64,000 bases of DNA from Candidatus Hydrogenedentales bacterium (GCA_942492815.1 OW818658.1:3862059-3926058); one strand, 5' to 3'; shown: positions 16,548 to 37,174, counted from the stretch's first letter. A program made the numbers and translations. Notes: generated by a model from the letters alone, not told the origin.

Positions 16548-16720
16548 ACCCTTGGTTTCTGGTGGCACTTCCTTATTCAGAATACGCTTTGTCGGACAGT
16601 CCCATTGAAATGCGTGGGACAGTCCTATGCTCAGACCCTCATCATCCGTGGATTGCCCCCCTTATTTCTGATGGCCCTTGTTATTCAGCGTATACGTTGT
16701 CGGACAGTCCCATCGGTTAT
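16548..16720. repeat. imperfect tandem duplication (about 115-bp unit) plus dispersed GGGACAGTCC motifs between convergent genes
   Basis: ttattcagaatacgctttgtcggacagtcccat and ttattcagcgtatacgttgtcggacagtcccat about 115 bp apart. gcgtgggacagtcct occurs at 16502 and 16611. gggaccgtc at 16386 and 16481. Confidence 0.5.
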
Positions 16721-17055
16721 ATTCTCGGTGTCGTCTGGACGGTGGATTGGGCCGTGATCTGACCGAGATCAGCGAGGGACTCGACGGGTTTCCAGGGGTC
16801 TTCCGTGTGCGTGGTGGCGCGCTGGTCGCGGACGTGGAGCTTGCCCGCGTCGTCCACCATGAAGAGTAAATCTTCGATTCGGATGGTCTTGTCGGCGCCG
16901 CAGAGGCCAATGGAGGCCGCCTCGAAGGTGTCCAGTTCCTCGTCCTTCACACCGAATCGCTCGTGAAGTATCTGGCGCGTCGTGCGGATTTTCTCCGCCA
17001 GGATTTCCTCCTGACGGGCCTCAAAGGCCTCCCTGGCCCGCTGTCTTAGGCCCAT
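16717..17055 (-). CDS. hypothetical protein (112 aa), last gene of the T6SS minus-strand operon
   Basis: ATG at 17055-17053 with Shine-Dalgarno AAAGGAATC 8 nt upstream. Protein MGLRQRAREAFEARQEEILAEKIRTTRQILHERFGVKDEELDTFEAASIGLCGADK... has no recognised domain. The longer ORF 16717..17304 is an in-frame upstream extension without support. Confidence 0.4.
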   Translation of the reverse strand: MGLRQRAREAFEARQEEILAEKIRTTRQILHERFGVKDEELDTFEAASIGLCGADKTIRIEDLLFMVDDAGKLHVRDQRATTHTEDPWKPVESLADLGQITAQSTVQTTPRI

Positions 17056-17080
17056 GGCGATGATTCCTTTCTGAGCAGAT

Positions 17081-18226
17081 TTATGGCTTGAGCGTGGTTG
17101 TGCTTTGGGGACGGCCAAAGAGGGGCGGCGCGGAAACACCGGGCTCAACCTCTCGGGGCGCGCGCCGGGCGGGCCCGTAGTCGCGATGGAAAGGTTCCGA
17201 AGCCACGTTTGGATTCCCGATCTGATCGGTGGCGACCCCGGCTGGAATGGACAGGGTAACGGGGCCCCGGTCCTGGCGCATGTCGATGATGAAGGTCTTG
17301 CCATCCGGCTCTGCGGAGAAATTGATCATCTTCCCATAGGCCACGGCGACATCGCCCCGCTCGAATCCCTGCACGGGCTCGCTGAACTCCGCGCGCACGC
17401 GAATGAGGCGGGCATTGCTTGCGCCGGGTGTCTCGAAGGAAGTGAGGGCGACTTCGGGGCCCGCGCTGTCCACCACAATCGAAAAGGCGGGCGAGGCTTC
17501 GTTGCCATTGCCGACGGCGTCGTACGCCACGTCTTCCGGGATCTGGAAAGCGATGGTGCCGTCCTGTGCGGGGGTAACGGAGAAGAGATAGATGGCGTCA
17601 CCATCGGCGCCCGCCTTGCGCTTGAGCTCGGCGTTTTCCATGGAAAGACTTTCGTCCTTCAACCCGAAGACGGGCTCGGAGAAGCCGAGCGCGATTTCCA
17701 TGGTGGCGTTGTTAACCACGCCAGCGGCCTCGCTGTGGACGAGACAGGTCGGGCGGGAACCATCGAAGACGACAACGCCGTCTTCGGCTGTGGAGGGGAC
17801 ATTGAGATTACCAAAGAGGTCGGCGCACAGGCCATCGGGAACGCTGACCTCGATGGCGCCGTCGTGCTCGGCGGAGAGGATGGCGACGCGATAGGTGTCG
17901 CGTGCGCCCTCGACGGTGTAGCGCAGCCCGGAGGCTGTGCCCGACATCACAATACCCGGCGCATTGGCCCCGGTGGGAAAATCCACCACGGGCTCGTCGA
18001 TCTTGATGTCGAAGTAGATGGGAAACTGATTAGTCGGATCGGGTTGGTCCGGAGCCTGCCGCACAACAATCTTCGGGCGGTCGTACTGGTTCAGAATCGC
18101 CGGGTTAGAGAGACGTCGATCATCCTTCTTTCGTTCCGAGCGCGTCTCGACGACGGTTACCGGTCCGGTCGGCCCCGGCTTACTCGTCGCTCCTGCGGGG
18201 GATCCAGGCCCGGATCGGTTTTTTTT
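17081..18226 (-). CDS. Ig-like repeat protein encoded in the -1 frame of tssM; probable C-terminal extension of TssM via frameshift/slippage at a poly-A(10) run (or homopolymer sequencing error)
   Basis: Frame is open from the TAA at 18227-18229 (inside the A10 run 18219-18228) down to the stop at 17081. It contains only a GTG (18064) with no ATG and a weak Shine-Dalgarno. Protein has three repeats of an Ig-like motif (VSVPDGLCADLFGNLNVPS / IAFQIPEDVAYDAVGNGNEAS / LSIPAGVATDQIGNPNVAS). Confidence 0.4.
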   Translation of the reverse strand, partial: KKNRSGPGSPAGATSKPGPTGPVTVVETRSERKKDDRRLSNPAILNQYDRPKIVVRQAPDQPDPTNQFPIYFDIKIDEPVVDFPTGANAPGIVMSGTASGLRYTVEGARDTYRVAILSAEHDGAIEVSVPDGLCADLFGNLNVPSTAEDGVVVFDGSRPTCLVHSEAAGVVNNATMEIALGFSEPVFGLKDESLSMENAELKRKAGADGDAIYLFSVTPAQDGTIAFQIPEDVAYDAVGNGNEASPAFSIVVDSAGPEVALTSFETPGASNARLIRVRAEFSEPVQGFERGDVAVAYGKMINFSAEPDGKTFIIDMRQDRGPVTLSIPAGVATDQIGNPNVASEPFHRDYGPARRAPREVEPGVSAPPLFGRPQSTTTLKP

Positions 18227-21200
18227 TTAATCTTCTTGCCGCCATAGCCCGGTCCCGTGCTCTCGGTGTAGGGTTCGGCGACCGCATCGCGACTCGCGGC
18301 CGGGGCCGAGGGCGCACCGATAATCGGAGGCTCGGGCGCGGCACCGTTCACGGGTTCGCGGGGCGTGGTAAAGGTCACTTCGGTGGTATAGAGCGGCCGC
18401 TCCGGTGCGGGCACGATCGCAGGCGGGCGCTTGATGGGCTCGGTGCGTACCGCGGGCATGGCGGGCTGCGGCGCGGGGGCCGGCGCGACGGGGGCCGGGG
18501 CAGGCGCGGGGAGCGCCTGCGGGAGGGGGCGCGTCATGACGGGCTGGGACTGGGGTGCCGGCGCGATTTCGCCGGGAAGGGTGTAGTCTGGTGCGGTGAC
18601 CTCGACGGCGGGCGCGTGGGCAATGTCCTGTTCGGGTTGCGGCGCGGCAGGCATTTCAGCCGGTACGGCTTCGGTCACCTCTCCCCCGCGAACCGGAGTG
18701 CTTGGGTTGTCCAGGGTAAACACGCGGGGCGATTCGGCCGCAGGCTTGTAGCTGTAGGCACCGTTGGGCATGGGAGCCGATCCGGTGGAGGACGGTGCGG
18801 CGATTGGCGCAGATTCAGGCGCGGGCAACGGCGTCACTTCCGGTGCCGGGGCCGGCGCAGGCGTGGACGGATCACCCGACCCCGTAATGAGGACTTCCTT
18901 GATCTTGTCGCTGATCTGAACGGATGTGGCGTTGGTCTGTACGGGTTCAGGGATCTCCGCTTCGCGAACCAAGGGCAGCAGGGGTGCTTCGGGATTGACG
19001 AATTGTCCACCTTCGGCGTCTTCGGGGTAGGACTCGCCCAGGGAGCGAGGCATGCGGCGAAGGCTGGGCCAATTGTAGGCCGAAGGCCAGCCCTTGAGAT
19101 CGGGGATCGGCTTGTTGAACTTGAAACCGAGCCAGTAGTAATACTCGCTGTCTTTGTGCTCGGCATTGTCCACCACGCGGAAGGGCACGGCGCAGGTCAT
19201 TTTGTCCTCAAGGACCACGGAATCACCCATGTGGAGGACGACGATGGGCAGCCAATCCATCTCCAGCCCCCCCACGCCGCTCGGGCGGGCGAAGCTGTTC
19301 ACACCGGGATTAAGATCCTCGGAGGTGTAGTAGAAGTGGAGGGCGAGCTTGTTGGACACGGGGGCCAGCGGATAGGTCTTGGCCGCCTCGCCCACCACGT
19401 AGGTCGTGGGTTCGGTGTTGAAGGCTTCGCCGTTGACGCGCATGTAGCGGTAGACCCAGGGGGCCGCGCCATAGACCTTGCTGGTGGGCATGGGCTCGGG
19501 GAAGCGCGGCGGGCGCTTCTCCTGCATTTCGCGCGGCAGAATCACCAGCTCGCAGGTCAGAGGCGTGTCGCCGCCGATAAAATCCATCACGGCCACGATT
19601 TGGTCGAACCATTCGCGCTCATACTCCGTGCGAATGACCTTGTCGCCCTGGAGGCGATCAATTTCCTTGTCCACGTCGGGCCAGCCGGTTCGCTCACCCG
19701 TCATCAGGGATTCTGCCTTTTCAGGCTTGGGCTGCTGCTTGATATGGCGCACGAGTTCCACGGCTTCGTCGAATTGCTCCGGCGTCAGGGGCGGCGTGGC
19801 GGTGTCGTTGATAAGGGGGAAGCCCCGATAGCGTGTGGCCAGATTGACGAGGTAGTAGCGGGACAGGTGCTCGCCCTCGTCGGCCAACAGACGAACGGCC
19901 TGGGTACAGAGGCTGCTCCAGAAGGCGAAGTTGGCCTTGTTCACACTGTTGTCGAGGAGCGAGAGGTAACCGCTCTTGAAGGCGTCCGCCTTCATGACAA
20001 GAAGATTGTTCACCACGTCGCGGTCGATCTTCTCGATGGCCTTCCATGCGTTGAGAATACGAAGGCACTCCGCGTCGAAGTCCTCACCCAGGCCCTTGAG
20101 CTTGAGGGTGAGGTCGAGGTGGGCGTCGGTCTGGCCCGGGTGGGTGTCGGGCACAATATCCACAGCATAAAGCGCGGTCTCGTAGAGCATGCGCAGCTTA
20201 TGGTTGACGTTGTACACCTCCAGATTGTTCAGCTCGGCGTGAAATTCCTTCCACGTGGCGTACTGGACCATTTCGGTGTTCTGGTCCACCATGCGCGACC
20301 AGTAGTTCACATACTCGGTGATGTAGTTGGTGAAGACCTGGTTCTTCTCCTTGAAACTGCGCTGGAGCCGGTCGATATCGGGCAGGGCGTCTTTGCCGAG
20401 CTTTTCCTGGCCGAGAATCTCCTTCATGTGGGACCAAAGCGTCAGAAGGTCGTAGACCACTTCGGTGTTGAAGCCGTCGTCGAACTGCTGCATTTCGCCG
20501 GTGGGCGTGAGGGGGATTTCGGGCTTCTCCAACCACTGGGCCTCGACGCGTGAGGCCACAAGACGGGCGAAGTCGGAGGTGTTGACCGGGAGCGCTTCCA
20601 CAATCTCGGCTACGACTTTGAAGCGCTGCTGGCGGTAGATCAGGGCCAGCATAGCCTCGGCCGCCTCACGACCGCTGTTAAAGCTGTCGGAGTTCGTGTC
20701 GAAATCGGCGATGTTGCGCACACTCTCGTCGAAGGCCTTCTGGAGCTCTTCGAGATCGAGGAGGTAGTCGAAGGGATCGTAAACATCCTCGCCCACCACA
20801 TAGTCCGACTCCTGAAGGAAGCCATAGACGTGGTTGCGCAACTGGTAGCCGCGCATGTCCTGGAAATCTGTCTTGGCGAGAAATTCGCGGTCGGCGCGGA
20901 GCGCGTCGAAGTCGGCGAGAAACTTTTCGGCCGACTGGGCCACGAGGGCATCGGTCGAGGTCTTGTCCGCGGCGAGGCGGTTCTTCACGTCTTGAATGTG
21001 CAGGCCCGTTTCGTCCTCTTTGATGGGCACGACCTTGTCGAGCTCCTGCGTGAGGATTCGATAGTCCTGATTTACCTTGTCTTGAACTTTTTCTCGTTCG
21101 TCCTCGCAGAGCTTTTTTATATCAACTTCGCGATCGGTGAAGAGGCGAGCGATGACGTCATCCAGCGCTTTGCGCTTCACGGTGAGCTTTTCCACGTCTT

Positions 21201-23451
21201 CTCGCCATGATGCGAGGATGACATCGATCTCGTGAACACTGTTGGGGCTTCCACCTTCCTGGGCGTTCTTCCAGAGGAGGGATTCCGCGTCACGGAAATC
21301 GGTCAAGGCCGTGAGCAACGCGCGAAGGTCGGCAAAGGCCGCGCCTTCGGAGACGTAGGTGTCAATGTGCTTCTTGAACTGGGCCGTACCGCTGTCGACC
21401 GCCTCATGGAGCCGCTCTTTTGCGCCCGCCTCAAAGAAAATTCTCGGCGGCCAAGCCTGGGATGTGGGCGGGTCGTAGAGGTCTTTGACGTATTCATTGT
21501 AGAACTTGTCGTGCTCCGCGTACTGGGCTTTATCCTCGACAGCATAGGCCAGGAAATTGTTCAGCTCGACCTTGCGCCCCTGAGAGCCGAGGTCGGGGGC
21601 GAAGCCGTCCTCCGTCATGGCCTCGATGCGCAATAGTTGGCCAAGGGCCAGGGTGGCTTCGTCGCGCCAGACGGGCTCGTCCTTGATGATGCGATCCTGT
21701 GCCGCTACGGCGAGGGGCGCCACGTAGCGATACTCGAAGATGCTGCGGTAGGCATCGAGCATGTCGGTGCGGAGGCGGCGATTGACGAGATCGAAGGGCT
21801 TGAAAACCCAGGGCGTGTTGACTTCCTGAACCCAGTGGGTTTCCATGACCTCGGGCAACTTGGCCATGAGAACGCCGGAAGCGTACTCCTCGGGCAGCTT
21901 GAGTCCCGCCAGGTCCACATTGAGGTCGCCATTGTACTCATAGTCCACGCCGCTGCCGGGGGTGACGATTGCGTCGCTCTTGGCCAGCCAGGCGTTGACC
22001 ACGTTCCAGTTTTGGCGCATCTGTTCCATGTCATTGCGCCACTGGTTGGACTCCCACATCATGTAGGCAAAGAGGCACATGAGGAGGCCGAGGCAGATCA
22101 GTACGAGGCGGGCCCGGGAGCGCTTGCGCTGGTAGCGCGGATCCTGTTTCCACGTAACCAGCCCGCCCTCGCAGAAGACCTTGTCGTTCAGCATTTCCTT
22201 GAGAAAATAGCTGTCTTCGGTGTGGCGCGTTTCGGCGGCGGGCAATTCCGACAGGGGCTTCGACAGGGCTCTGGCCAGCGAGGGATCAAGCTCGGTGTCG
22301 CGCTGGATGGCCGAGGTGTAGTAGGCGCCGCGGAGGAAAAAGGTCGCGCAGTACCAGGAGTCCGGTTCGAAAATACGTTCGAGATAGGTGCCAAGCCGAC
22401 GGGCGGTCTGCTGAAAACTCCGGGGAAACTCGTAGAGGTGGTTCACCTGTACGCGGCGCTTGTAGGCCAGGCTCTTGGACTCGATGGAATATTGGAGCAG
22501 GGAATCGCGACGGTGCCGGAGGCGGTTGAACACGCCTTCCATATCGTTCCGAAACTTGTCCGGGCCGAAGGGTGTTTCCAGGGTATCGGGATTGGACCAG
22601 CCGAAGATCTGATCGCGGTTGCCACCTTCTTTCAGGTCGGAGAAGTACTCCAGAAAGCCGCAGAGGCGATCGCTCTTGGTAACCATGACGAAGACGGGCA
22701 CCTGGGTACCCAGGGCGCGATGAACGTTTTCAAAATGCTCCACGAGGCGCGCGGACTTGGTATTCACGTCCTCGTCGGAATCGGCCAGCAACGTTTCGGC
22801 GGAGATGGCGAGGATGATGCCGTTGAGCGGGCTCGCGGGACGAAAATCGGCGATGTGCTTGAGTAGGAGCTTCCACGCACGAGCCTCGGAGGCACCGCCC
22901 CGCCCAAAAAAGTGAGCGCCGGGCAGATCAAGGAGCACGGCCTTGTTGGTGATCCACCAGTCGAGGATCTGGGTGCCGCCCACGCCCTGGGTGGTGTCGG
23001 TGAGGCCTGCGGGGAAGCCGATGCCGCTGCGGCGGATGGCCTCGGACTTGCCGCAGCCTTTCTCCCCCACCACCAGATAGAGGGGCAGCTTGTAGGGATC
23101 TTTGCGGAAGCTGGCGAGATCGGCCACGCCCTTGTCGAACTTGCGGGCAAGCTCACGGCGGAATTCGTCGTCGGAGATGGAAGGGACTTCTTCTTCCGGC
23201 ATCGCTCCGTCGGTCGGGACTTCGGCGGCGGCTTTCTTCGCCCGCCAGCGCCGCCAGTTCTTCACACAAAAGTAGATGAGGCTGGCGATTGCAGCGATAA
23301 TGGCCAAAATCAAGAGGGGCTTGCGAAGCGGCTCTGGAAACCACGAGAATGCATCCGTGACCAATCCGAAAATCGCCATTACCGGGATGATCAGATATTG
23401 CCAATCCCCGATCTCTTCCATGAAGCCGTATACTTTGCTAATCGGATTCAC
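18157..23451 (-). CDS. tssM: type VI secretion system membrane subunit TssM (IcmF family)
   Basis: Two N-terminal transmembrane helices, cytoplasmic P-loop NTPase (VVGEKGCGKSE Walker A, VLLDLPG Walker B), third transmembrane helix (RLVLICLGLLMCLFAYMMW), long periplasmic IcmF-related domain, Pro/Ala-rich C-terminal region. Immediately downstream of tssL. Confidence 0.9.
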   Translation of the reverse strand: MNPISKVYGFMEEIGDWQYLIIPVMAIFGLVTDAFSWFPEPLRKPLLILAIIAAIASLIYFCVKNWRRWRAKKAAAEVPTDGAMPEEEVPSISDDEFRRELARKFDKGVADLASFRKDPYKLPLYLVVGEKGCGKSEAIRRSGIGFPAGLTDTTQGVGGTQILDWWITNKAVLLDLPGAHFFGRGGASEARAWKLLLKHIADFRPASPLNGIILAISAETLLADSDEDVNTKSARLVEHFENVHRALGTQVPVFVMVTKSDRLCGFLEYFSDLKEGGNRDQIFGWSNPDTLETPFGPDKFRNDMEGVFNRLRHRRDSLLQYSIESKSLAYKRRVQVNHLYEFPRSFQQTARRLGTYLERIFEPDSWYCATFFLRGAYYTSAIQRDTELDPSLARALSKPLSELPAAETRHTEDSYFLKEMLNDKVFCEGGLVTWKQDPRYQRKRSRARLVLICLGLLMCLFAYMMWESNQWRNDMEQMRQNWNVVNAWLAKSDAIVTPGSGVDYEYNGDLNVDLAGLKLPEEYASGVLMAKLPEVMETHWVQEVNTPWVFKPFDLVNRRLRTDMLDAYRSIFEYRYVAPLAVAAQDRIIKDEPVWRDEATLALGQLLRIEAMTEDGFAPDLGSQGRKVELNNFLAYAVEDKAQYAEHDKFYNEYVKDLYDPPTSQAWPPRIFFEAGAKERLHEAVDSGTAQFKKHIDTYVSEGAAFADLRALLTALTDFRDAESLLWKNAQEGGSPNSVHEIDVILASWREDVEKLTVKRKALDDVIARLFTDREVDIKKLCEDEREKVQDKVNQDYRILTQELDKVVPIKEDETGLHIQDVKNRLAADKTSTDALVAQSAEKFLADFDALRADREFLAKTDFQDMRGYQLRNHVYGFLQESDYVVGEDVYDPFDYLLDLEELQKAFDESVRNIADFDTNSDSFNSGREAAEAMLALIYRQQRFKVVAEIVEALPVNTSDFARLVASRVEAQWLEKPEIPLTPTGEMQQFDDGFNTEVVYDLLTLWSHMKEILGQEKLGKDALPDIDRLQRSFKEKNQVFTNYITEYVNYWSRMVDQNTEMVQYATWKEFHAELNNLEVYNVNHKLRMLYETALYAVDIVPDTHPGQTDAHLDLTLKLKGLGEDFDAECLRILNAWKAIEKIDRDVVNNLLVMKADAFKSGYLSLLDNSVNKANFAFWSSLCTQAVRLLADEGEHLSRYYLVNLATRYRGFPLINDTATPPLTPEQFDEAVELVRHIKQQPKPEKAESLMTGERTGWPDVDKEIDRLQGDKVIRTEYEREWFDQIVAVMDFIGGDTPLTCELVILPREMQEKRPPRFPEPMPTSKVYGAAPWVYRYMRVNGEAFNTEPTTYVVGEAAKTYPLAPVSNKLALHFYYTSEDLNPGVNSFARPSGVGGLEMDWLPIVVLHMGDSVVLEDKMTCAVPFRVVDNAEHKDSEYYYWLGFKFNKPIPDLKGWPSAYNWPSLRRMPRSLGESYPEDAEGGQFVNPEAPLLPLVREAEIPEPVQTNATSVQISDKIKEVLITGSGDPSTPAPAPAPEVTPLPAPESAPIAAPSSTGSAPMPNGAYSYKPAAESPRVFTLDNPSTPVRGGEVTEAVPAEMPAAPQPEQDIAHAPAVEVTAPDYTLPGEIAPAPQSQPVMTRPLPQALPAPAPAPVAPAPAPQPAMPAVRTEPIKRPPAIVPAPERPLYTTEVTFTTPREPVNGAAPEPPIIGAPSAPAASRDAVAEPYTESTGPGYGGKKIKKKTDPGLDPPQERRVSRGRPDR

Positions 23452-23457: not shown

Positions 23458-24183
23458 TTACTCCTGCACTACCGCGGTGGCGGGTTTGAGCATCTTGGCG
23501 GACTCGCCATCGGCGAACTCGGTAATGCTGTCCAGGGTGCGACGCAATTCTCCGGAGCTGGAGTAGTAAAGGTAAACGTTGGTCCCCAGGACGGCCAGAA
23601 TCGCCGCGATGAGGGCCCAGCGCACGTGCTTGTAGCGCTTCAAGGGGCGTGTGGCCAGGGGCTGTTCGTCGATGTGCTCGTAGGCCGTGGGGGTCAACTG
23701 CGCGGAGAGCTCGAAGCGATCGCCGAAGGCCTTCGCGTCCATGTCGCTGTGCAACTGGCGGATGTATTTCCAGTCGTCGCTGTAGCAGCCGGTAAAGCCG
23801 AGGCGGAGGCATTCGCGGAACACGGTGAGCTGCTGGAGGGCGACCTCCGTGTTCTGCGCCAGGGTCTGCTCCAGCAGATCGAAAAACTGCTCGTCACCGG
23901 CGAGTTCCTGTTCGTCGAAGGCCAGCTCCACCCATTCCTGTGCGATGTTCAGGTCGCTTTCCTTGATCATGAAATCGACATAAAAAATGAGAATCAGATT
24001 GATGGTGCGGTCGTACTGGTAGGCCAGTGAAGGGTGGGCCTCCGCCTTGATGCGGATGTCGGCGAAGATGCCGATGATCTCGCGCCGCACCTGCTCGACG
24101 TCAAACTCCGTCTTGTGCTCCGCCGCGCGGGTAAGGCAACCCACGTAGAGGAAAAGGGGCTCGGTCAGTTGCACCAGGTTCAT
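23458..24183 (-). CDS. tssL: type VI secretion system protein TssL (DotU family), C-terminal single transmembrane anchor
   Basis: DotU-like cytoplasmic domain (MNLVQLTEPLFLYVGCL...IIGIFADIRIKAE...) and one C-terminal transmembrane helix VRWALIAAILAVLGTNVYLYY. Position between tssK and tssM. Confidence 0.8.
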   Translation of the reverse strand: MNLVQLTEPLFLYVGCLTRAAEHKTEFDVEQVRREIIGIFADIRIKAEAHPSLAYQYDRTINLILIFYVDFMIKESDLNIAQEWVELAFDEQELAGDEQFFDLLEQTLAQNTEVALQQLTVFRECLRLGFTGCYSDDWKYIRQLHSDMDAKAFGDRFELSAQLTPTAYEHIDEQPLATRPLKRYKHVRWALIAAILAVLGTNVYLYYSSSGELRRTLDSITEFADGESAKMLKPATAVVQE

Positions 24184-29544: not shown

Positions 29545-29685
29545 AAGGGGTCTGTGCACGGTCCGAAATTCAGAAGGTAGCTTGACTCCATTCCTGTTCG
29601 TTTCAACGTCTCAGTCGTGTTTCGTGGTTCAATTTTCTCCTGCGGCCAACGGCCACGCTATGTAGTTCATGGTACGTTTGCCGAC

Positions 29686-30747: not shown

Positions 30748-32591
30748 CGTTTAAGCTCTCCTTGTTCCGGCGTTTGAATCACGGTTTCCGTGAAGGAATT
30801 CAACGATACATGCTTGGCGAAGAAGCGTTCGAGCACCGCGCCCAGCAGGAAGGTGCCCGCGCCCTCCACCGATTCCTCCTCCATCGTCACCTGGATCTCC
30901 AAGCCCCGGGCGAAGGCGATCTGGCCCGGTCCCTCGACGCGACGCGTAATCGGCACGCTCCGGACCTGGCGCAGGCTGTTGATCTGCTTGCGGATGCCCG
31001 GGTCCGAGACCGAGCCGTAAAGCCCAAGCAATTCGCGCAGGGCGGAGGCGGCATCGCCCTCTTCCGTGTCCATCAGGGACAGGTAATTGAGGGAAAGGTG
31101 ATTGATAATGCGCCAGGTGAAGGCCCCTTCGGCCAGGGAAGCTCGGGGTGTGGTGGGGCCGGCCACGACGCGAATACCTTCGACGGGCGCGTGGGCATCC
31201 AGGGTAAAGTCGGAGTTCAACACGCCTGTCTGCATGAGCAGCGGCAGGTCCCGGTTGGTACACAGGGTTTCCAGGGCGAGCTGGCGGATGTCCGGGCTGT
31301 AGGGAGCGGCATTTGCATCGACCAGGGAGACATAGACCTCGCTTCCCGAGTAGCCCGAGCGGGTCCCGTGGTTGAGCTCGCGCTCGCTCAGACGGCGTGG
31401 CATTCGTTGGGTCGAAAAGTAGGCGCGACTCTCGGAGTCATAGCCCTTGGCGGAATAGAAGGGCTCGAAAATCTGGCGGTCCCCCATCTGGGTGCCGTAG
31501 CCCGTGATGCGGTTGACCTGGTAGATCTCGAAATCCAGGGGACGTGTACGATCACCCACGATGTGGAACCGCGATACTGTGTCGGAAACGTCAACGCGGT
31601 CGGGCTCCAGCGGAAACAGATTGATGGCCGGGGCGCAATTGAGCACGAAATTATTTGCCGCCACTTCATTCTCCAGCCGGGGATCGCCCTGCTTGAGGAG
31701 GATGAAGATGTCGAGCTCCGTCGTGACGGCGCTGCCGATGTATTTGTTCAGCCCGCCGATCTCAAAAAACATGTAGCGCTGGGGAAAGGCGAAGTACTCG
31801 TGGAGCAGGCGGTAGCCCTGAAAGGAGCGGGAGCCGTAGGGCAGGAGATGTTCATCGTCCCCGAAGCCCACCTGGCGAATCCGCTCGGCCGAGAGGGTGC
31901 GCTGCCAGGCCGGTGCGCTGCCCGTGGGCCGCATGACCACGCCCACGCCATGGGAGAATATCGCTTCGTAGAGCCGGGCCCCCACATCGCCGCCGCCGCG
32001 GATGAACAGGGTAAGCTTGTTCAGATCGATGTCGCTGAACAGCAACCCGCCCATGGTCTTCAGCCGGAGGCGGATACCGGCGCTCACATCGCGCCGATCG
32101 GGGAGGCCGAGGGAGCTGATTTCCCGGGTGTAGTACTCCGCCTCGGTCAACACGATGGGCCACAGGGTTACGTCGTGGCCCGTGCGGTACTGGCAAGAAT
32201 AGTCGTCGCCGATACCGCCACCGCTGCGGATGACGGAATCGCGCGGAATGGTTACCCCTTCGGCCAGCGAAGGCTCGGCAAAATCGGGCTGAAACTGGAC
32301 CACGGTCATAGAGGGGGTGGGGCAAAGATAGTGGGGATAGACCGTCTCCACCAGGCTCTGGGTGAAGTTGGGAAACTCGTCATCCAGCTTCATGCGCACG
32401 CGGGCGGTGAGAAAGGCCACACCTTCGAGAAGCCGCTCGACATAGGGGTCGGCGCACTCGAAGGAATCGAGACCGAGGCGGCCCGCCACCTTCGGGTTCT
32501 CCCGGGCGAAGACCTCGCCCATTTCCCGCAGGTACTGTAATTCTTCGTTGTAATAGTCCAGGCGGCGGCGGCTGTTGGAGATTCTATCCAT
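30711..32591 (-). CDS. tssF: type VI secretion system baseplate subunit TssF
   Basis: N-terminus LDYYNEELQYLREMGEVFARENPKVAGRLGL...DPYVERLLEGVAFLTARV is the TssF signature. 626 aa. Overlaps the tssE stop by 8 nt. Confidence 0.9.
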   Translation of the reverse strand: MDRISNSRRRLDYYNEELQYLREMGEVFARENPKVAGRLGLDSFECADPYVERLLEGVAFLTARVRMKLDDEFPNFTQSLVETVYPHYLCPTPSMTVVQFQPDFAEPSLAEGVTIPRDSVIRSGGGIGDDYSCQYRTGHDVTLWPIVLTEAEYYTREISSLGLPDRRDVSAGIRLRLKTMGGLLFSDIDLNKLTLFIRGGGDVGARLYEAIFSHGVGVVMRPTGSAPAWQRTLSAERIRQVGFGDDEHLLPYGSRSFQGYRLLHEYFAFPQRYMFFEIGGLNKYIGSAVTTELDIFILLKQGDPRLENEVAANNFVLNCAPAINLFPLEPDRVDVSDTVSRFHIVGDRTRPLDFEIYQVNRITGYGTQMGDRQIFEPFYSAKGYDSESRAYFSTQRMPRRLSERELNHGTRSGYSGSEVYVSLVDANAAPYSPDIRQLALETLCTNRDLPLLMQTGVLNSDFTLDAHAPVEGIRVVAGPTTPRASLAEGAFTWRIINHLSLNYLSLMDTEEGDAASALRELLGLYGSVSDPGIRKQINSLRQVRSVPITRRVEGPGQIAFARGLEIQVTMEEESVEGAGTFLLGAVLERFFAKHVSLNSFTETVIQTPEQGELKRWKARMGQRKLV

Positions 32592-33111
32592 TGCGCCATT
32601 CCTTTACGATCACGCTGGCCTTGTGCATGTCGACGCTGGTGAGAATGTAAACATTTTCGGAATAGGGCTTGGCCCAGAGCTCCGCGTTAATTTCGATATC
32701 CAGGTTGCGCATGGCGGTGTCGCTGGCGGATTCCACCGGGGAGACGCGCACGCGCAGTGTTTCTCTGTTGACCCGAGGTTCGAATCGCGTGATGGCCTCT
32801 CGAATGGCCTGCTCGACCATTTGGGGCTTCATGGCTACGTCGGCCATGCCGAGGAGGTTGGGCATGCCGTAGTTCAACACGGAACGCTGCACTTCGGGAT
32901 GTTCCGCGTACTCGGCCAGCTCCGGCTGAAGCCCGTAGGAGAGCAGTCGCATAAGATCCCGCTGGAAGCCGGCCCGGTATTCCTGAAAACTCATGGCTTG
33001 CGGGCGGGGGGCCTCCAGCCGCCGGTCCGGCTCTTGGTCGGTCAGGCGGTCCATCAGCGATGGCAGGTAGCGGACATACAACGGGATGACCTCGCAATCG
33101 GATACGGACAT
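32584..33111 (-). CDS. tssE: type VI secretion system baseplate subunit TssE (gp25-like)
   Basis: 175 aa with the SLMDRLTD motif and gp25/lysozyme-like size. Position between hcp and tssF. Confidence 0.8.
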   Translation of the reverse strand: MSVSDCEVIPLYVRYLPSLMDRLTDQEPDRRLEAPRPQAMSFQEYRAGFQRDLMRLLSYGLQPELAEYAEHPEVQRSVLNYGMPNLLGMADVAMKPQMVEQAIREAITRFEPRVNRETLRVRVSPVESASDTAMRNLDIEINAELWAKPYSENVYILTSVDMHKASVIVKEWRNG

Positions 33112-33233: not shown

Positions 33234-33352
33234 TAACCGCGAGCGAGGCACTGGTTCGTTTGGAAAATCTGGCCTTTGGTGGAATTGCAACGCGGCCGGG
33301 CTTGCCCCACGGCAAGCCCGGTCGCGGTCATTCATGTTCAAATCGCCGTGAA

Positions 33353-33844
33353 TCAGGTCTGGCGGTTGGTCAGGCGGTTCCAGGTCGAGCTGAAGGTATC
33401 GCCCATCTTGCCGTCCGGCTTCACCATGGTGTATTCCCACTTGATGGTGGTGAAGGCGAGGGAGCCTTCTTCGGTGGGCAGTTCACCGTCGCTGCCGGTC
33501 GTGTTGATGCTGGCAACGATGCTGTTGGTCAGCGTGATCCGGAAGTAGACTTCGGCCTTTTCCGTGGGGCGGACGGCTTCGATCACGATCGTGGGAATCA
33601 CTTTGGCCGTCAGGCAGTACTGGAAAAGCTGGACGCTGGAGCGGTCCATGGCTTTGTTGAAGCTCATGACTTCCAGCGTTGCGCCGCCGGTGGTGAAACC
33701 GCCGGCCGCGGAGGGCGTGCCGCCGCCTTCAATGTCGTGGGCCATTTCCTGGCCAAATTCGGTGATTTCCAGCCATCCCTTGTGGCTTTCGTCTTCGGAT
33801 TCACCCGTGATCCCGTCAATCTTCATGAAGAATGCGTTTGCCAT
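33353..33844 (-). CDS. hcp: type VI secretion system tube protein Hcp (TssD)
   Basis: MANAFFMKIDGITGESEDESHKGWLEI... is the classic Hcp1 N-terminus. 163 aa. Flanked by long intergenic gaps (154 bp upstream, 241 bp downstream), consistent with its own expression control. Confidence 0.9.
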   Translation of the reverse strand: MANAFFMKIDGITGESEDESHKGWLEITEFGQEMAHDIEGGGTPSAAGGFTTGGATLEVMSFNKAMDRSSVQLFQYCLTAKVIPTIVIEAVRPTEKAEVYFRITLTNSIVASINTTGSDGELPTEEGSLAFTTIKWEYTMVKPDGKMGDTFSSTWNRLTNRQT

Positions 33845-33998: not shown

Positions 33999-35468
33999 TC
34001 AGCCCTTTTCCGTGGGGAGCTTGGAAACCAGCCGGAGCGATGCCGACAGGCCTTCCAACTGGTAGTGGGGGCGCAGGTAGAACACGGCCGAATAATAGCC
34101 CGGGTTGCCTTCCACATCCGCCACCACGACTTCGGCGGCGGCCAGCGGGCGGCGAGCCTTGGCTTCATTCGACGCATTCGCGGGATCGGGCTCGACGTAC
34201 TGGCGGATCCAGTTGTTCAGCCAGGTCTCCATGTCGGAGCGCTCGGCGAAGGATCCCACCTTGTCGCGCACGATGCACTTGAGATAGTGGGCGAAGCGGC
34301 AGGTCGAGAACAGGTAGGGCAGGCGCGCGCTGAGGTTCGCGTTGGCCGTCGCATCCGGATCATCATATTCCTGAGGCTTCTGCAGCGACTGGGCACCGAT
34401 AAACACGGCGTAGTCGGTATTCTTAAAGTAAGACAGGGGCATCAGGCCGCACTTGGCCAGCTCGGCCTCGCGACGGTCGGTGATGGCGATCTCGGTCGGG
34501 CAGGTCATGTCCACGCCGCCATCGTCCGTCGGGAAGGTGTAGCAGGGCAGTCCCTCGACGGAACCGCCGCTTTCCACGCCCCGGATCTGGGAACACCAGC
34601 CGTAGAGCTTGAAGGAGCGGGTGATGTTCGCGCCCATGGCGTAGGCGGCGTTCGCCCAGGTGAAATTCGCCTGGTCGTTGTTGACCACTTCTTCAAAGTC
34701 GAAATCGTCGACGGGGTTGGTCTGGGCACCGTAGGGCAGGCGGGACAGGAAGCGCGGCAGGGTCAAACCCAGGTAGCGCGCATCTTCCGACTCGCGGAGG
34801 GAGCGCCAGGGGGCGTACTCCGGCGAGGTGAAGAGCTTGTTGATATCACTCGGATTGGCCAGCTCCTGCCAGCTATCCATGTTCATCAACTTGGGCGAGG
34901 CGGCGGCGATAAAGGGTGTGTGCGCCGCGGCCGCGACCTGGGACAGGCCCTGGAGAATTTCGACATCCGGGGCGCTGTGGTCGAATTCATAGTCGCCCAC
35001 GATACAGCCAAAGGGCTCGCCGCCCGGGGTGCCGTACTCTTCTTCGTACATCTTCTTGAAGAGGGGGCTCTGTTCCCACGCGGTGCCCTTGAATTTCTTC
35101 AACACCTTCGCTATCTCTTTTTTGGAGATGTTCAGCACGCGAATTTTCAGTTGCTCGTCGGTCTCGGTATTGGCAACCATGTACTGGAGGCCGCGCCATG
35201 AACCTTCAAGCCGCTGGAAGTCCTCGTGGTGGATGATCTGGTTCACCTGAGCGGAGAGCTTGTCGTCCAGACTCTTGATGATGAACTTAATGGTCGCCGT
35301 GGGATCCGCGGGATCGACCTCACCCTCCTTGAGGGCCTGGCGGGCCAGGGTGTTGATGGATTTCTGGATGGTCTCGCGGGCGGCCGAGGATTTCGGCTTG
35401 AATTGCGAGTCGATCAGGCTGTCGATCTGGGTTACTTCCAATGCGCCTTCGTCAAGTGCTTCGGCCAT
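33999..35468 (-). CDS. tssC: type VI secretion system contractile sheath large subunit TssC (VipB)
   Basis: 489 aa. Conserved TssC blocks (PFGCIVGDYEFDHSAPDVEILQGLSQVAAAAHTPFIAAASP ... PRFLSRLPYG ... YLRPHYQLEG). Starts 2 nt after the tssB stop. Confidence 0.9.
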   Translation of the reverse strand: MAEALDEGALEVTQIDSLIDSQFKPKSSAARETIQKSINTLARQALKEGEVDPADPTATIKFIIKSLDDKLSAQVNQIIHHEDFQRLEGSWRGLQYMVANTETDEQLKIRVLNISKKEIAKVLKKFKGTAWEQSPLFKKMYEEEYGTPGGEPFGCIVGDYEFDHSAPDVEILQGLSQVAAAAHTPFIAAASPKLMNMDSWQELANPSDINKLFTSPEYAPWRSLRESEDARYLGLTLPRFLSRLPYGAQTNPVDDFDFEEVVNNDQANFTWANAAYAMGANITRSFKLYGWCSQIRGVESGGSVEGLPCYTFPTDDGGVDMTCPTEIAITDRREAELAKCGLMPLSYFKNTDYAVFIGAQSLQKPQEYDDPDATANANLSARLPYLFSTCRFAHYLKCIVRDKVGSFAERSDMETWLNNWIRQYVEPDPANASNEAKARRPLAAAEVVVADVEGNPGYYSAVFYLRPHYQLEGLSASLRLVSKLPTEKG

Positions 35469-35470
35469 GA

Positions 35471-35959
35471 TTATTCACCTCCGCCCAGGGCTTCAAGTGC
35501 GGCCTTGTCACCCAGGATCTTGCCCAGCAGGTTTTCCGCGCCACTCTTTCCGTCCATGTAGGAAAGGAGGTTGGAAAGGTCCCGGCGGGCGGTTAACAGC
35601 TCGTTCAGCTCTTCCACGTTTTCGGCTACTTTGCCTGGGGAAAAGTCATCCATCGATTCAAAGGTCATTTCGACGCTCAGGTTGCCTTCGCCCGACAGGG
35701 TATTGGGCACTTTAAACGCCACGCGCGGCTTCATCGCTTTGAGGCGGGTATTGAAATTCTCGGCGTCGATCTCCAGCAGATCGCGATCACTCACGGGCGG
35801 AAGGGCTTCGGCCGGGTTTCCCGAGAGGTCCGCCATCACGCCCATGACAAAGGGCAGGTTAATCTTCTTCTCGGCCCCGTACAGTTCAACATCGTACTCG
35901 ATCTGAACCCGGGGGGCTTTGTTACGAGCAATAAATTTTTGACCACTCTGTTTTGCCAT
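35471..35959 (-). CDS. tssB: type VI secretion system contractile sheath small subunit TssB (VipA)
   Basis: MAKQSGQKFIARNKAPRVQIEYDVELYGAEKKINLPFVMGVMADLSG is the TssB signature. Start taken at the internal ATG (MAKQ...), because the upstream 17 codons of ORF 35471..36010 look like a spurious extension. Confidence 0.85.
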   Translation of the reverse strand: MAKQSGQKFIARNKAPRVQIEYDVELYGAEKKINLPFVMGVMADLSGNPAEALPPVSDRDLLEIDAENFNTRLKAMKPRVAFKVPNTLSGEGNLSVEMTFESMDDFSPGKVAENVEELNELLTARRDLSNLLSYMDGKSGAENLLGKILGDKAALEALGGGE

Positions 35960-36058
35960 GGTGCTCCTCGCCCTTTCTCTGTACAGCGACTCCGGTGCCC
36001 GCGCGGGCAACGGCCCCGCTGCCGTTAAGATTCTCTACACCCGGACTCGCCGGTTCCC

Positions 36059-37174
36059 TTAATTGTCATCCTCCGATGAGCCTCCCCCGGCGTTCATGGA
36101 ACCCGAGAGCGACGTGCCGGTGATGGTCTGGATATCCGAAAGCGCGCCGGGCGACAAGTCGGAAATAATGTCGAAAAAATTCGCCGTAACCAGGCGCTCG
36201 GCCCGCTTCATGATGAGCGGTACGGGGCTGGACGGTTCATTCTTGTTGTAGTACTTGTAGATGAGGTCGAAAGCCTTGAGTACGTCCTGCCGGGTATTGA
36301 TGCCGGCCGAACCCATGTCGCCGCGTTTTGCGGCCGCTTCACCACCACCACCACCGCCCGCCTCCTCGCCATCACCGGTGTCATCTGATTCTTCGGTGGC
36401 GCTTGCATCGGAAAAATAGCCGCGCCGGTCAAGCTCATTGTGGACCGGCTTCTTCATATCCTGCAACATACCGGCCAGGTTCGCAAAGGTGGGCGGCGTG
36501 CTCTCCGTCAACTTCTCTCGAAGTGCGCCCTTGATGCCATCCAGCGTGGCCAGCGACTCGGTCAGCGCGCCGTACATGGCCTCCAAATCGGCCAGGGGCG
36601 TGTCTTCAAAGGCCCCGAGAATCAGGGCCATCTTGGGCGCATCGCTCGATTCGTCACTACCTGCGGCCAGCGCGGCCTGAATATCGCGAAGGGAAAAGCG
36701 GCCTAACTGGCGAGAACTGGTCAGGGGCGTTTCCCGGAGGCGTTGCAGGAACTTCATCGTGTCGCCGGCCGTGCTGAGGGGGGCGCTCATGTCGTTCAGG
36801 ATATTCTCCCGCTCCATCCAGCCGTCCGGGTCGCCCATGCTCTCGTCGGGGTCCAGCGATGGGTACATGCTGTCCCAGTATCGCTCAATCATGCCCCGGG
36901 TCAACAGCAGGCCATCACGAAACCCGGTCACACCCTGCCGCTTCATGGCGGCAAGGCTCAGAAACAGGGCGGTTCGAAGGTGCTTGCAGGATTTGAAGTG
37001 CTCCAGCGCTTTTTCATTCAGATCGAGCCAATTGGGCTCCACGGCGTCGATTTCGGCACCGGCGATGACCCCCACCCCTTGTTCCTTGACGATCTCCTCC
37101 AGCGCAAAGAGGGAACCTTCCTCTCCACATGGATTATCACCGGGAATGGGCTCTAATAACTGGTCTAAATCCAT
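36059..37174 (-). CDS. tssA: type VI secretion system protein TssA (ImpA N-terminal domain family, short form)
   Basis: ImpA_N-like start MDLDQLLEPIPGDNPCGEEGSLFALEEIVKEQ. About 371 aa with an acidic/Gly-rich linker (DDTGDGEEAGGGGGGEAAAKRGD). First gene of the minus-strand operon. The listed ORF extends 79 codons further upstream without support, and the start could alternatively be the ATG 11 codons upstream (MCVLL...). Confidence 0.75.
   Translation of the reverse strand: MDLDQLLEPIPGDNPCGEEGSLFALEEIVKEQGVGVIAGAEIDAVEPNWLDLNEKALEHFKSCKHLRTALFLSLAAMKRQGVTGFRDGLLLTRGMIERYWDSMYPSLDPDESMGDPDGWMERENILNDMSAPLSTAGDTMKFLQRLRETPLTSSRQLGRFSLRDIQAALAAGSDESSDAPKMALILGAFEDTPLADLEAMYGALTESLATLDGIKGALREKLTESTPPTFANLAGMLQDMKKPVHNELDRRGYFSDASATEESDDTGDGEEAGGGGGGEAAAKRGDMGSAGINTRQDVLKAFDLIYKYYNKNEPSSPVPLIMKRAERLVTANFFDIISDLSPGALSDIQTITGTSLSGSMNAGGGSSEDDN

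What the first reader, a model, noticed from the sequence alone, without database searches (positions are those of the whole stretch)
16717..37174. Complete single-strand T6SS structural operon with clpV detached 16.5 kb away
Thirteen consecutive minus-strand genes with tight or overlapping junctions: tssA, tssB, tssC, hcp, tssE, tssF, tssG, vgrG, orf183, tssJ-like, tssK, tssL, tssM, then the Ig-like ORF and orf112. They encode every core component except the ATPase. The only ClpV candidate (53930-56512) is monocistronic and separated from tssA by the 12.6-kb adhesin gene, anmK and two other genes. No fha/ppkA/pppA/tagF regulators and no PAAR gene lie within the cluster. The only PAAR-like gene is the orphan DUF4280 at 434-823. 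The physical uncoupling of the sheath-recycling ATPase, and its unusual domain spacing (no middle domain between AAA1 and AAA2, about 150-aa insertion before the GARPL sensor), suggest a divergent T6SS variant.
Basis: partly seen in the sequence, partly recalled or inferred. Interest (0 to 1): 0.55.

Follow-up and report, generated by a model that had tools for sequence, protein, structure and literature searches.

The report
T6SS cluster with unlinked, non-canonical Clp ATPase
This is a real but divergent type VI secretion gene cluster from an uncultured Hydrogenedentota bacterium that has lost the usual sheath-recycling ATPase gene, and the nearby Clp ATPase is not a standard ClpV but belongs to a separate Clp lineage that may have taken over that job.

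Summary
The gene calls are confirmed. Window 16717-37174 (minus strand) encodes TssA, B, C, Hcp, E, F, G, VgrG, K, L and M by Pfam/NCBIfam. It also holds four conserved accessory genes. The cluster is not fully canonical. TssM is 1764 aa, and only its N-terminal and C-terminal domains are recognisable. The 'TssJ' is a lipoprotein of an unannotated family. Three intergenic gaps carry very stable hairpins.

The organism is a Candidatus Hydrogenedentota MAG. The same gene order recurs in at least two other lineages.

The Clp ATPase (53930-56512) is not a canonical TssH. It scores below every NCBIfam cutoff and lacks the M-domain that all six TssH references have. It keeps a ClpB-type KYR pore loop, lacks a ClpP-binding loop, and has 55-aa and 35-aa insertions in D2. 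Its N-domain is a generic Clp_N fold.

Three observations link it to the T6SS. It co-occurs with this T6SS in three lineages. It lies 4.9 kb from tssA in one relative. Its Planctomycetota relatives sit inside conserved clusters that contain spike genes.

A sister T6SS (L103) carries a canonical TssH just upstream of vgrG, where this cluster has none. Best reading: canonical tssH was lost and a different Hsp100 lineage probably substitutes. This is inferred, not shown.

The parts
36059..37174 (-). tssA (371 aa from the ATG at 37174; the longest ORF runs to 37411)
   Evidence: ImpA_N 62 bits. TIGR03363 155 bits over the full profile, cutoff 160.85. Start choice. Orthologues are called at 369 aa in L001-L003.
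35471..36010 (-). tssB (small sheath subunit)
   Evidence: T6SS_VipA, 186 bits.
33999..35468 (-). tssC (large sheath subunit). Its N-terminus keeps an SLIDSQF helix motif.
   Evidence: VipB 442 bits and VipB_2 150 bits. N-terminal motif compared with Vibrio SLLDEIM and Burkholderia SLLDELI.
33353..33844 (-). hcp (tube)
   Evidence: T6SS_HCP, 109 bits.
32584..33111 (-). tssE
   Evidence: GPW_gp25 55 bits. TIGR03357 62 bits, above the 53.2 cutoff.
30711..32591 (-). tssF
   Evidence: T6SS_TssF, 741 bits.
29686..30747 (-). tssG
   Evidence: T6SS_TssG, 329 bits.
29303..29685 (-). tssG|vgrG gap. This is where tssH lies upstream of vgrG in Ralstonia, Burkholderia T6SS-5 and L103. Here it holds only a hairpin with 35-nt arms (29465-29546).
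   Evidence: reference gene orders; gap sequence; hairpin -54.7 kcal/mol, z -9.9.
27200..29302 (-). vgrG (spike, no effector domain)
   Evidence: Phage_GPD 298 bits, Phage_base_V, Gp5_trimer_C.
26460..27011 (-). orf183: conserved small protein after vgrG, with an acidic N-terminus and a prealbumin/TTR-like C-terminal domain
   Evidence: Weak SpaA/CarboxypepD_reg hits. Conserved in L084 and L099. C-terminus 62% identical to the post-VgrG gene of L103.
25643..26284 (-). Lipoprotein in the TssJ position (TssJ analogue; homology unproven)
   Evidence: Invariant lipobox Cys52. The family has about 250 representatives. None of the 115 members scanned hits Pfam T6SS-SciN. No match in the PDB or to reference TssJ beyond the signal peptide. 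It lies immediately upstream of tssK here and in L084, L099 and L103.
24187..25563 (-). tssK
   Evidence: T6SS_VasE, 238 bits.
23458..24183 (-). tssL (DotU, one C-terminal TM, no PG-binding domain)
   Evidence: DotU 54 bits. TM at 187-208.
18157..23451 (-). Divergent tssM, 1764 aa. Three TMs, Walker A NTPase domain, about 750 aa of unmatched helical periplasmic region, an IcmF_C-like domain, and a P/A-rich tail of about 290 aa.
   Evidence: IcmF-related_N 161 bits. TIGR03348 246 bits, N-terminal part only. TMs. hhalign of residues ~1213-1440 to the canonical TssM C-terminal domain: probability 93.4%, E 2.6e-7. AF2 model pLDDT 80 with no PDB match.
17081..18064 (-). Big_12 Ig-like protein, a conserved gene after tssM
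   Evidence: Big_12 66 bits. Conserved in L084 and L099. An Ig-like gene also follows tssM in Burkholderia T6SS-5.
16717..17055 (-). orf112, a conserved small gene ending the cluster
   Evidence: Orthologues of 113 aa in L084 and L099, 64-70% identical. No family hit.
12852..13643 (+).
   Evidence: PG_binding_1. 72-73% identical in L084/L099, and 47% identical to the gene beside vgrG in L103.
53930..56512 (-). Non-canonical Clp/Hsp100 ATPase (860 aa), the candidate sheath-recycling unfoldase
   Evidence: details in the report.
434..823 (-). DUF4280 (PAAR-like) orphan gene, a possible spike tip
   Evidence: DUF4280 108 bits.

Best explanation
Shown: the region is an intact contractile type VI secretion cluster of the T6SS-i kind, in a Candidatus Hydrogenedentota genome. 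It has sheath (TssB/C), tube (Hcp), spike (VgrG), baseplate (TssE/F/G/K), TssA and an inner-membrane anchor (TssL plus a very long TssM). Lineage-specific accessories are a lipoprotein in the TssJ slot, a small TTR-like protein after VgrG, an Ig-like protein, orf112 and a LysM/PG-binding protein. The cluster has no canonical tssH. A sister system (L103) has one directly upstream of vgrG.

Inferred: the ancestor of the Hydrogenedentota system lost tssH. Contracted sheaths are instead disassembled by the Clp ATPase at 53930-56512. This protein is a two-ring, M-domain-less, ClpP-independent Hsp100 of a separate lineage. It would thread TssC through its KYR pore loops after its Clp_N domain, or an unknown adaptor, docks on the exposed TssC N-terminal helix. 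Because it acts in trans as a soluble hexamer, it needs no linkage to the operon. In this phylum its position varies: 4.9 kb from tssA, 16.5 kb from tssA, or on another contig.
For: Conservation and synteny across lineages come; TssC is 100% identical in L001-L003, and TssK and TssF are 85-87% identical in L084/L099.

For loss of tssH:
- L103 shares VgrG (37%), orf183 C-terminus (62%), PG-binding protein (47%), TssJ-like (27%), TssK (45%), TssL (34%) and full-length TssM (27%). It has a Clp 65% identical to alphaproteobacterial TssH next to vgrG.
- tssG-tssH-vgrG order occurs in the Ralstonia and Burkholderia references; tssG-tssH is also seen in Parasedimentitalea.

For the Clp as the T6SS partner:
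- In L004 (Clp 66%, TssC 76%) it lies 4.9 kb from tssA, with only mobile-element genes between. A degenerate copy of its promoter and 5' end lies about 400 bp from tssA.
- The same MAG, GCA_030432675.1, carries both the T6SS (L099) and the Clp (L006).
- Clp divergence tracks the T6SS core: 87% vs 85-86%, and 66% vs 76%.
- The nearest outgroup Clps (47-55%) are embedded in four Planctomycetota-type clusters that carry VgrG-like spike and/or CIS_spike_tip genes in three of the four loci.
- It has no IGF/IGL/VGF ClpP loop. [quoted passage not shown]
- It forms its own 100%-supported clade outside ClpB/ClpC/ClpA/ClpK, and is sister to TssH in NJ (94%).
- TssC retains the N-terminal SL[LI]D motif helix that ClpV targets (PMC10433429).
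Against: - There is no direct functional evidence.
- In the window and in L006-L009/L108 the Clp sits among glycan-metabolism genes, with no T6SS gene within 10 kb.
- It shares no upstream motif with the T6SS promoters, and no sigma-54 site was found.
- The N-domain resembles ClpB-N and ClpC-N at least as well as ClpV-N. That AF2 model is low-confidence (pLDDT 65.5).
- Only 2 shared-derived sites link it to TssH.
- I could not test whether these genomes also carry a standard ClpB, or whether T6SS-less Hydrogenedentota also carry this Clp.
- The Planctomycetota clusters could not be shown to encode a sheath or tube.
- Some T6SSs work without any ClpV (PMC5363822).
Confidence: 0.5

Rival explanations
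1. The Clp is a general stress or disaggregation chaperone unrelated to secretion, or only moonlighting as Francisella ClpB does. On this view the T6SS runs without a dedicated recycler, like the clpV-less group 1.2 clusters.
For: - The best NCBIfam score is to ClpB (593 bits), and it has a ClpB-type KYR pore loop.
- The N-domain is a generic Clp_N fold.
- The gene lies among metabolic genes in two lineages.
- It shares no promoter motif with the T6SS.
- Precedents exist: PMC5481754 (Francisella ClpB) and PMC5363822 (group 1.2 T6SS without clpV).
Against: - It lacks the M-domain, which ClpB needs to cooperate with DnaK (established knowledge).
- It is adjacent to tssA in L004, with a gene remnant abutting tssA.
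- Its closest outgroup relatives are integral to spike-containing clusters.
- Close relatives were found only in Hydrogenedentota and in Planctomycetota-type clusters, a small and patchy clade that does not look like a universal housekeeping family.
Confidence: 0.33
2. One reading: this is a true ClpV (TssH family member) that insertion of the adhesin block merely displaced from the operon.
For: - The NJ tree places its clade sister to TssH with 94% bootstrap.
- It shares the GPSGVGKT Walker A variant with TssH.
- It lies in the same chromosomal neighbourhood as the T6SS.
Against: - It scores 525 bits against TIGR03345, whose cutoff is 885.
- It has no M-domain, while all six TssH references do. 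Its D1 pore loop differs and its D2 has extra insertions.
- Only 2 synapomorphy-like sites link it to TssH.
- The sister T6SS lineage carries a genuine TssH that is only ~45% identical over a 204-aa conserved D2 segment (best HSP) to this Clp.
- It is detached in other lineages too. Relative to L004 its orientation is inverted, so a simple insertion does not explain the layout.
Confidence: 0.12
3. The cluster is a decaying, non-functional remnant, and the loss of tssH is part of that decay.
For: - There is no in-cluster ATPase, PAAR or evident effector.
- REP-like hairpins have invaded three intergenic gaps.
- An ISL3 transposase gene lies nearby.
Against: - All ORFs are intact.
- Gene order and sequences are conserved across at least three lineages and several metagenomes. 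TssC is 100% identical in L001-L003, while the neighbouring adhesin is only 92% identical.
Confidence: 0.05

Closest known systems
Canonical T6SS-i clusters, e.g. Burkholderia T6SS-5 and Vibrio T6SS (reference loci L102, L101)
   Same: The core set is the same: TssA, B, C, Hcp, E, F, G, VgrG, K, L, M. The gene order B-C-hcp-E-F-G-(H)-vgrG-...-J-K-L-M-Ig-like matches Burkholderia T6SS-5 apart from tssH. TssC is 40-42% identical.
   Different: There is no tssH in the cluster. TssM is about 600 aa longer, has an unmatched helical periplasmic region and carries a P/A-rich tail. The TssJ-slot lipoprotein is not T6SS-SciN. There is no PAAR, FHA, PpkA or TagF. The host is an uncultured non-proteobacterial phylum.
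ClpV/TssH (TIGR03345)
   Same: Two AAA+ rings with intact Walker motifs, a Clp_N-type N-domain and no ClpP-binding loop. It is genomically associated with a T6SS in some relatives, and is the NJ sister clade of TssH.
   Different: It scores below the family cutoff. It has no M-domain, a KYR rather than S[IV]K D1 pore loop, and 55-aa and 35-aa D2 insertions. Its N-domain is not ClpV-specific. It is usually not inside the T6SS cluster.
Francisella T6SS-ii using unlinked housekeeping ClpB (PMC5481754), and clpV-less group 1.2 T6SS of Pseudomonas putida (PMC5363822)
   Same: The T6SS cluster has no clpV. Any recycling ATPase must be encoded elsewhere or dispensed with.
   Different: Here the unlinked ATPase is not ClpB. 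It has no M-domain, belongs to a small lineage-restricted clade, and is physically linked to the T6SS in one relative and to spike clusters in Planctomycetota.
TssM-like proteins that match only PF14331, annotated 'IcmF/TssM N-terminal domain-containing protein' in Verrucomicrobiota and Planctomycetota
   Same: The TssM N-terminal domain is recognised, while PF06761 and PF06744 are not. These proteins are encoded next to TssK and TssL.
   Different: The Hydrogenedentota proteins are the longest (about 1750 aa), with a P/A-rich tail. The window protein's C-terminal domain is still detectably IcmF_C-like by profile-profile comparison.

Membership tests
Type VI secretion system (T6SS-i core gene set) | Contractile sheath TssB and TssC | tested here: met
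   PF05591 186 bits; PF05943 442 bits and PF18945 150 bits.
Type VI secretion system (T6SS-i core gene set) | Hcp tube and VgrG spike | tested here: met
   PF05638 109 bits; PF05954 298 bits plus PF04717 and PF22178.
Type VI secretion system (T6SS-i core gene set) | Baseplate TssE, F, G, K | tested here: met
   TIGR03357 above cutoff; PF05947 741 bits; PF06996 329 bits; PF05936 238 bits.
Type VI secretion system (T6SS-i core gene set) | TssA (ImpA_N) | tested here: met
   PF06812 62 bits, above the 26.9 cutoff. TIGR03363 covers the full profile at 155 bits, cutoff 160.85.
Type VI secretion system (T6SS-i core gene set) | Membrane complex TssL and TssM | tested here: met
   DotU 54 bits, above the 27 cutoff. 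TssM N-terminal domain 161 bits. C-terminal domain by hhalign at 93% probability. The equivalog cutoff is not reached (246 vs 388 bits).
Type VI secretion system (T6SS-i core gene set) | Outer-membrane lipoprotein TssJ (T6SS-SciN) | tested here: inconclusive
   There is a conserved lipoprotein in the right position with a conserved lipobox. No sequence or profile homology to TssJ was found. The fold was not predicted.
Type VI secretion system (T6SS-i core gene set) | ClpV/TssH encoded in the cluster | tested here: not met
   No Clp gene lies in 16717-37411. The only Clp locus in the window is at 53930-56512.
ClpV / TssH (TIGR03345) | Scores above the curated equivalog cutoff | tested here: not met
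   524.6 bits against a cutoff of 884.95. ClpB scores higher, at 592.9.
ClpV / TssH (TIGR03345) | Domain plan N-D1-M-D2, as in the six reference TssH proteins | tested here: not met
   The alignment shows a ClpA-like D1-D2 junction with no M region, plus extra insertions at 646-700 and 762-796.
ClpV / TssH (TIGR03345) | Monophyly with TssH to the exclusion of ClpB/A/C | tested here: inconclusive
   NJ gives a sister clade with 94% bootstrap. Only 2 shared-derived sites support it, against 10-12 private changes per branch. No ML tree was possible.
ClpV / TssH (TIGR03345) | N-domain with the ClpV-specific groove that binds the TssC N-terminal helix | tested here: inconclusive
   The N-domain profile hits ClpB-N and ClpC-N only. 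The AF2 model (pLDDT 65.5) matches ClpB-N best, with ClpV1-N (4hh5) at rank 15. The model is too uncertain to judge groove residues.
ClpV / TssH (TIGR03345) | No ClpP-docking IGF/IGL/VGF loop (stand-alone unfoldase) | tested here: met
   The alignment with ClpA and a ClpC-like protein shows no such tripeptide at the loop position.
ClpV / TssH (TIGR03345) | Disassembles contracted TssB/C sheaths | not testable with these tools
   This requires biochemistry or live imaging.
ClpB (TIGR03346) | Equivalog cutoff and coiled-coil M-domain | tested here: not met
   592.9 bits against a cutoff of 1232, matched in 3 separate stretches. The M-domain is absent.
ClpA / ClpC (ClpP partners) | ClpP-binding loop; equivalog cutoff | tested here: not met
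   ClpA scores 538 bits against a cutoff of 993. There is no IGL/VGF loop and no UVR motif.

The most novel reading that the evidence does not exclude
This would be a non-orthologous replacement of ClpV. A previously undescribed Hsp100 lineage has no M-domain, carries two D2 insertions and is ClpP-independent. In Planctomycetota it is a built-in component of an uncharacterised gene cluster containing spike genes. In Hydrogenedentota the same lineage would have been recruited as the trans-acting sheath recycler of a T6SS that lost canonical tssH. That would imply that recycling ATPases for contractile systems were recruited from the Clp family at least twice.
Probability: 0.35. Interest if true: 0.65.

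Novelty: new variant of a known kind. Interest (0 to 1): 0.5.

Why it matters
[quoted passage not shown] Known exceptions either lack a recycler or borrow housekeeping ClpB.

A lineage that lost canonical TssH but keeps a distinct, lineage-restricted Clp loosely linked to the cluster would be a third solution. It would also give a sequence handle on a new Clp subfamily tied to contractile or spike systems.

The cluster documents a T6SS in Hydrogenedentota. A full-text search found no paper that mentions this phylum together with T6SS.

The cluster also shows a membrane complex that departs from the EAEC TssJLM model, with a very long TssM and a non-SciN lipoprotein. That is relevant to how T6SSs adapt to different cell envelopes.

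Tried and rejected
- Foldseek of the TssM periplasmic model against the PDB gave no significant match.
- Profile-profile and PHROG searches could not identify sheath, tube or baseplate genes in the Planctomycetota Clp clusters. Their description as contractile-injection-like rests only on the VgrG-like spike and the CIS_spike_tip gene.
- I looked for sigma-54 sites or shared k-mers between the clp and T6SS upstream regions and found none.
- The sigma-70 and terminator scans were at chance level.
- I looked for a tssH remnant in the tssG|vgrG gap. tblastn with TssH, ClpB and ClpA queries hit only the 53930-56512 locus. The gap holds a hairpin element.
- I tried to link the TARA T6SS contig to a Clp through P0002 and P0003, but they come from other samples.
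- The metagenome scan added only two relevant loci.
- I considered that this system is a close relative of Burkholderia T6SS-5 because the gene order is similar. I rejected this, because its proteins are about equally distant from T6SS-5 and from Vibrio.

Full report
**Observation**

ORF listing and profile searches confirm a run of minus-strand genes from 37174/37411 down to 16717. In order they are:
- tssA (ImpA_N; TIGR03363 155 bits over the full profile)
- tssB (186 bits)
- tssC (442 + 150 bits)
- hcp (109 bits)
- tssE (TIGR03357, above cutoff)
- tssF (741 bits)
- tssG (329 bits)
- vgrG (298 bits; no effector domain)
- orf183
- a 213-aa ORF in the TssJ slot
- tssK (238 bits)
- tssL (DotU, 54 bits)
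- a 1764-aa tssM-like gene
- a Big_12 Ig-like ORF
- orf112

No FHA, kinase, phosphatase, TagF or PAAR domain occurs in any cluster ORF. tblastn with PAAR queries finds none in the window. DUF4280 at 434-823 is confirmed. The intervening genes are a 4199-aa protein with cadherin/Big_9/DUF11 domains, AnmK, a Zn-ribbon protein and a DUF5009-like membrane protein.

Junctions are not uniformly tight. They range from -37 to +383 bp. The hcp|tssE, tssG|vgrG and vgrG|orf183 gaps contain very stable hairpins. Two were folded: -73.4 and -54.7 kcal/mol, z -13.4 and -9.9. The third is a related copy.

**Source and conservation**

Exact-protein look-ups and the genome scan identify the organism as a Candidatus Hydrogenedentota/Hydrogenedentales MAG.

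The same gene order, accessory genes included, recurs in a TARA contig (L084) and in MAG GCA_030432675.1 (L099). That order is orf183, the lipoprotein, Big_12 and orf112, followed by the flanking amidohydrolase-like, LysM/PG_binding_1, DAHL-PAS and cytochrome c peroxidase genes. Core protein identities there are 62-95%. This is a conserved, selected system, not a chance ORF run or a decaying remnant.

**Divergent membrane complex**

TssM has three TM segments and a Walker A motif. Pfam and NCBIfam recognise only its N-terminal domain.

Its homologues form a family that carries PF14331 alone:
- Hydrogenedentota proteins of about 1750 aa.
- Verrucomicrobiota and Planctomycetota proteins of 1100-1500 aa, annotated 'IcmF/TssM N-terminal domain-containing'.

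A profile-profile comparison of the periplasmic parts aligns window residues ~1213-1440 with the canonical C-terminal (IcmF_C) domain at 93.4% probability, E 2.6e-7. So this is a genuine TssM. The ~750-aa helical middle is not matched.

An AlphaFold model (pLDDT 80.4; a long helical region followed by a C-terminal beta domain) has no significant Foldseek match in the PDB. A P/A-rich tail of about 290 aa follows.

The ORF in the TssJ slot has an invariant lipobox cysteine. It belongs to a family of about 250 representative clusters. None of the 115 members scanned matches T6SS-SciN. Profile searches against the PDB and against reference TssJ proteins match only the signal peptide. 'Complete core set' is therefore unproven for TssJ.

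**The Clp ATPase**

The 860-aa protein scores 593 bits against ClpB, 538 against ClpA and 525 against TssH. All are far below the curated cutoffs.

I aligned it with six annotated TssH proteins and with ClpB, ClpA, ClpK, ClpL and ClpC-like references taken from annotated plasmids. The alignment shows:
- There is no M-domain. All six TssH references have one of ClpB-like length.
- The D1 pore loop is ClpB-type KYR, where TssH has S[IV]K.
- There is no IGF/IGL/VGF ClpP loop.
- Both rings have intact Walker A and B motifs.
- There are three private insertions, at 101-115, 646-700 and 762-796.

An NJ tree (695 columns, 200 bootstraps) gives a 100%-supported clade of Hydrogenedentota plus Planctomycetota Clps. 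That clade is sister to TssH at 94%. However, only 2 sites are shared-derived between the two clades, against 10-12 private changes on each stem. Long-branch attraction cannot be excluded.

The N-domain profile weakly hits ClpB-N and ClpC-N and no ClpV-N entry. A low-confidence AF2 model (pLDDT 65.5) has the generic Clp_N fold. ClpB-N ranks near the top and EAEC ClpV1-N ranks 15th.

The protein is therefore not a member of TssH, ClpB, ClpA or ClpC as these families are defined. It represents a separate Hsp100 lineage.

**Is it the T6SS's ATPase?**

Evidence from gene context:
1. In L004 (Clp 66%, TssC 76%) the Clp is 4.9 kb from tssA and divergently oriented. Only an integrase and an IS91 transposase gene lie between. 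A degenerate copy of the clp upstream region and 5' part lies about 400 bp from tssA. This points to a former direct tssA|clp junction.
2. MAG GCA_030432675.1 carries both the T6SS (L099) and the Clp (L006, 87%), on different contigs.
3. Clp divergence parallels that of the T6SS core proteins.
4. The nearest outgroup Clps (47-55%) lie inside conserved co-directional clusters in four Planctomycetota-type loci (L005, L085, L086, L109). Three of the four loci carry a VgrG-like spike gene and/or a CIS_spike_tip gene. The other genes of these clusters match nothing.
5. TssC keeps an N-terminal SLIDSQF motif comparable to Vibrio SLLDEIM and Burkholderia SLLDELI. This is the helix that ClpV targets according to PMC10433429.

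Evidence against:
- In the window, and in L006-L009/L108, the Clp lies among glycan-metabolism genes.
- It shares no promoter motif with the T6SS.
- I could not determine whether these genomes also carry a standard ClpB.

**Loss of canonical tssH**

L103 is a metagenome contig whose T6SS belongs to the same lineage. Identities to the window are TssK 45%, VgrG 37%, TssL 34%, TssM 27% over the full length, the lipoprotein 27%, the orf183 C-terminus 62% and the LysM/PG_binding_1 protein 47%.

L103 carries a Clp 65% identical to alphaproteobacterial TssH, directly upstream of vgrG. tssG-tssH-vgrG is also the order in the Ralstonia and Burkholderia T6SS-5 references; in Parasedimentitalea tssG-tssH is seen. 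Apart from tssH, the Burkholderia T6SS-5 order matches the window, including an Ig-like gene after tssM.

In the window the tssG|vgrG gap holds only a hairpin element. In L084 and L099 that gap is 82 bp. The parsimonious reading is that the Hydrogenedentota system lost tssH.

**Mechanism proposed**

Shown: the parts list of a contractile T6SS anchored by TssL and a long TssM, with a lineage-specific lipoprotein.

Inferred: after firing, the contracted TssB/C sheath is unfolded by hexamers of the unlinked Clp. Recognition would go through its Clp_N domain or through an unidentified adaptor. Because the enzyme acts in trans, it needs no linkage to the operon, which fits its variable position in the genome. 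I give this about 50%.

Rivals:
- A housekeeping or moonlighting chaperone, with the T6SS lacking a dedicated recycler (about 33%). Precedents are Francisella ClpB (PMC5481754) and the clpV-less group 1.2 clusters (PMC5363822).
- A decaying cluster (about 5%).

**Comparison and novelty**

The cluster is a T6SS-i-type system in an uncultured phylum. The full-text library holds no paper that mentions that phylum together with T6SS.

It differs from known clusters in three ways: a TssM with only its end domains recognisable, a non-SciN lipoprotein, and no tssH. The Clp is a new Hsp100 subfamily rather than a ClpV.

I rate this a new variant of a known kind, of moderate interest. Interest would rise if the non-orthologous replacement of ClpV were demonstrated.

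Noticed in passing
window 29465-29546, 33161-33233, 27090-27161; related arms at 2321-2339 and 2655-2673: Two kinds of very stable hairpin element (30-35-nt arms) occupy three intergenic gaps of the T6SS operon. The two that were folded give -54.7 and -73.4 kcal/mol (z -9.9 and -13.4). Arms related to one of them flank a ~330-bp stretch beside the ISL3 transposase gene. They look like REP or MITE elements and could act as attenuators or mRNA stabilisers.
   Followed up: partly
L005:10001-19278, L085:10001-20476, L086:10001-20054, L109:6695-12172: Planctomycetota-type loci share a conserved cluster. The related Clp ATPase comes first, followed by proteins of 187-266, 393-558, 145-174 and 157-192 aa. 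Three of the four loci also carry a VgrG-like spike and/or a CIS_spike_tip protein. Apart from the spike genes, nothing matches Pfam, PHROGs or T6SS profiles. This may be an undescribed spike-bearing or contractile system with its own Clp.
   Followed up: partly
L084:9725-9994 and L099:9725-9994: An 89-aa ORF between tssL and tssM duplicates the N-terminal two-TM hairpin of TssM. It is absent from the window, where tssL and tssM are 6 bp apart.
   Followed up: partly
window 12852-13643 (+) and 14242-16380 (+): A LysM + PG_binding_1 protein and a 712-aa amidohydrolase-like protein flank the T6SS in every Hydrogenedentota locus seen. The PG-binding protein also sits beside vgrG in L103 (47% identity). 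It may be a cell-wall-anchoring or wall-remodelling accessory, or an effector.
   Followed up: partly
L004:5522-5951 versus L004:9861-10649: A degenerate partial duplicate (84-93% identity) of the clp upstream region and 5' coding part abuts tssA. The intact clp lies 4 kb away, beyond an integrase and an IS91 transposase gene. This is evidence of recent rearrangement at the tssA|clp junction.
   Followed up: yes
window 4513-6153 (-) and L004:12585-14168: A PDZ-domain protein (546 aa, N-terminal TM) lies next to the PKD-repeat protein in the window. A 36%-identical homologue lies immediately after the Clp gene in L004. It is unclear whether this is a functional link or a paralogue.
   Followed up: no
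window 18157-19040 (TssM residues ~1470-1764): A proline/alanine-rich, low-complexity C-terminal tail of about 290 aa follows the IcmF_C-like domain of TssM. Canonical TssM proteins end shortly after that domain. It may span or anchor in the outer envelope.
   Followed up: no
window 2875-4173 (+): An ISL3-family transposase gene (DDE_Tnp_ISL3, 294 bits) lies between the DUF4280/CobW genes and the PDZ/PKD genes. It marks a likely rearrangement point at the left edge of the conserved T6SS neighbourhood.
   Followed up: no
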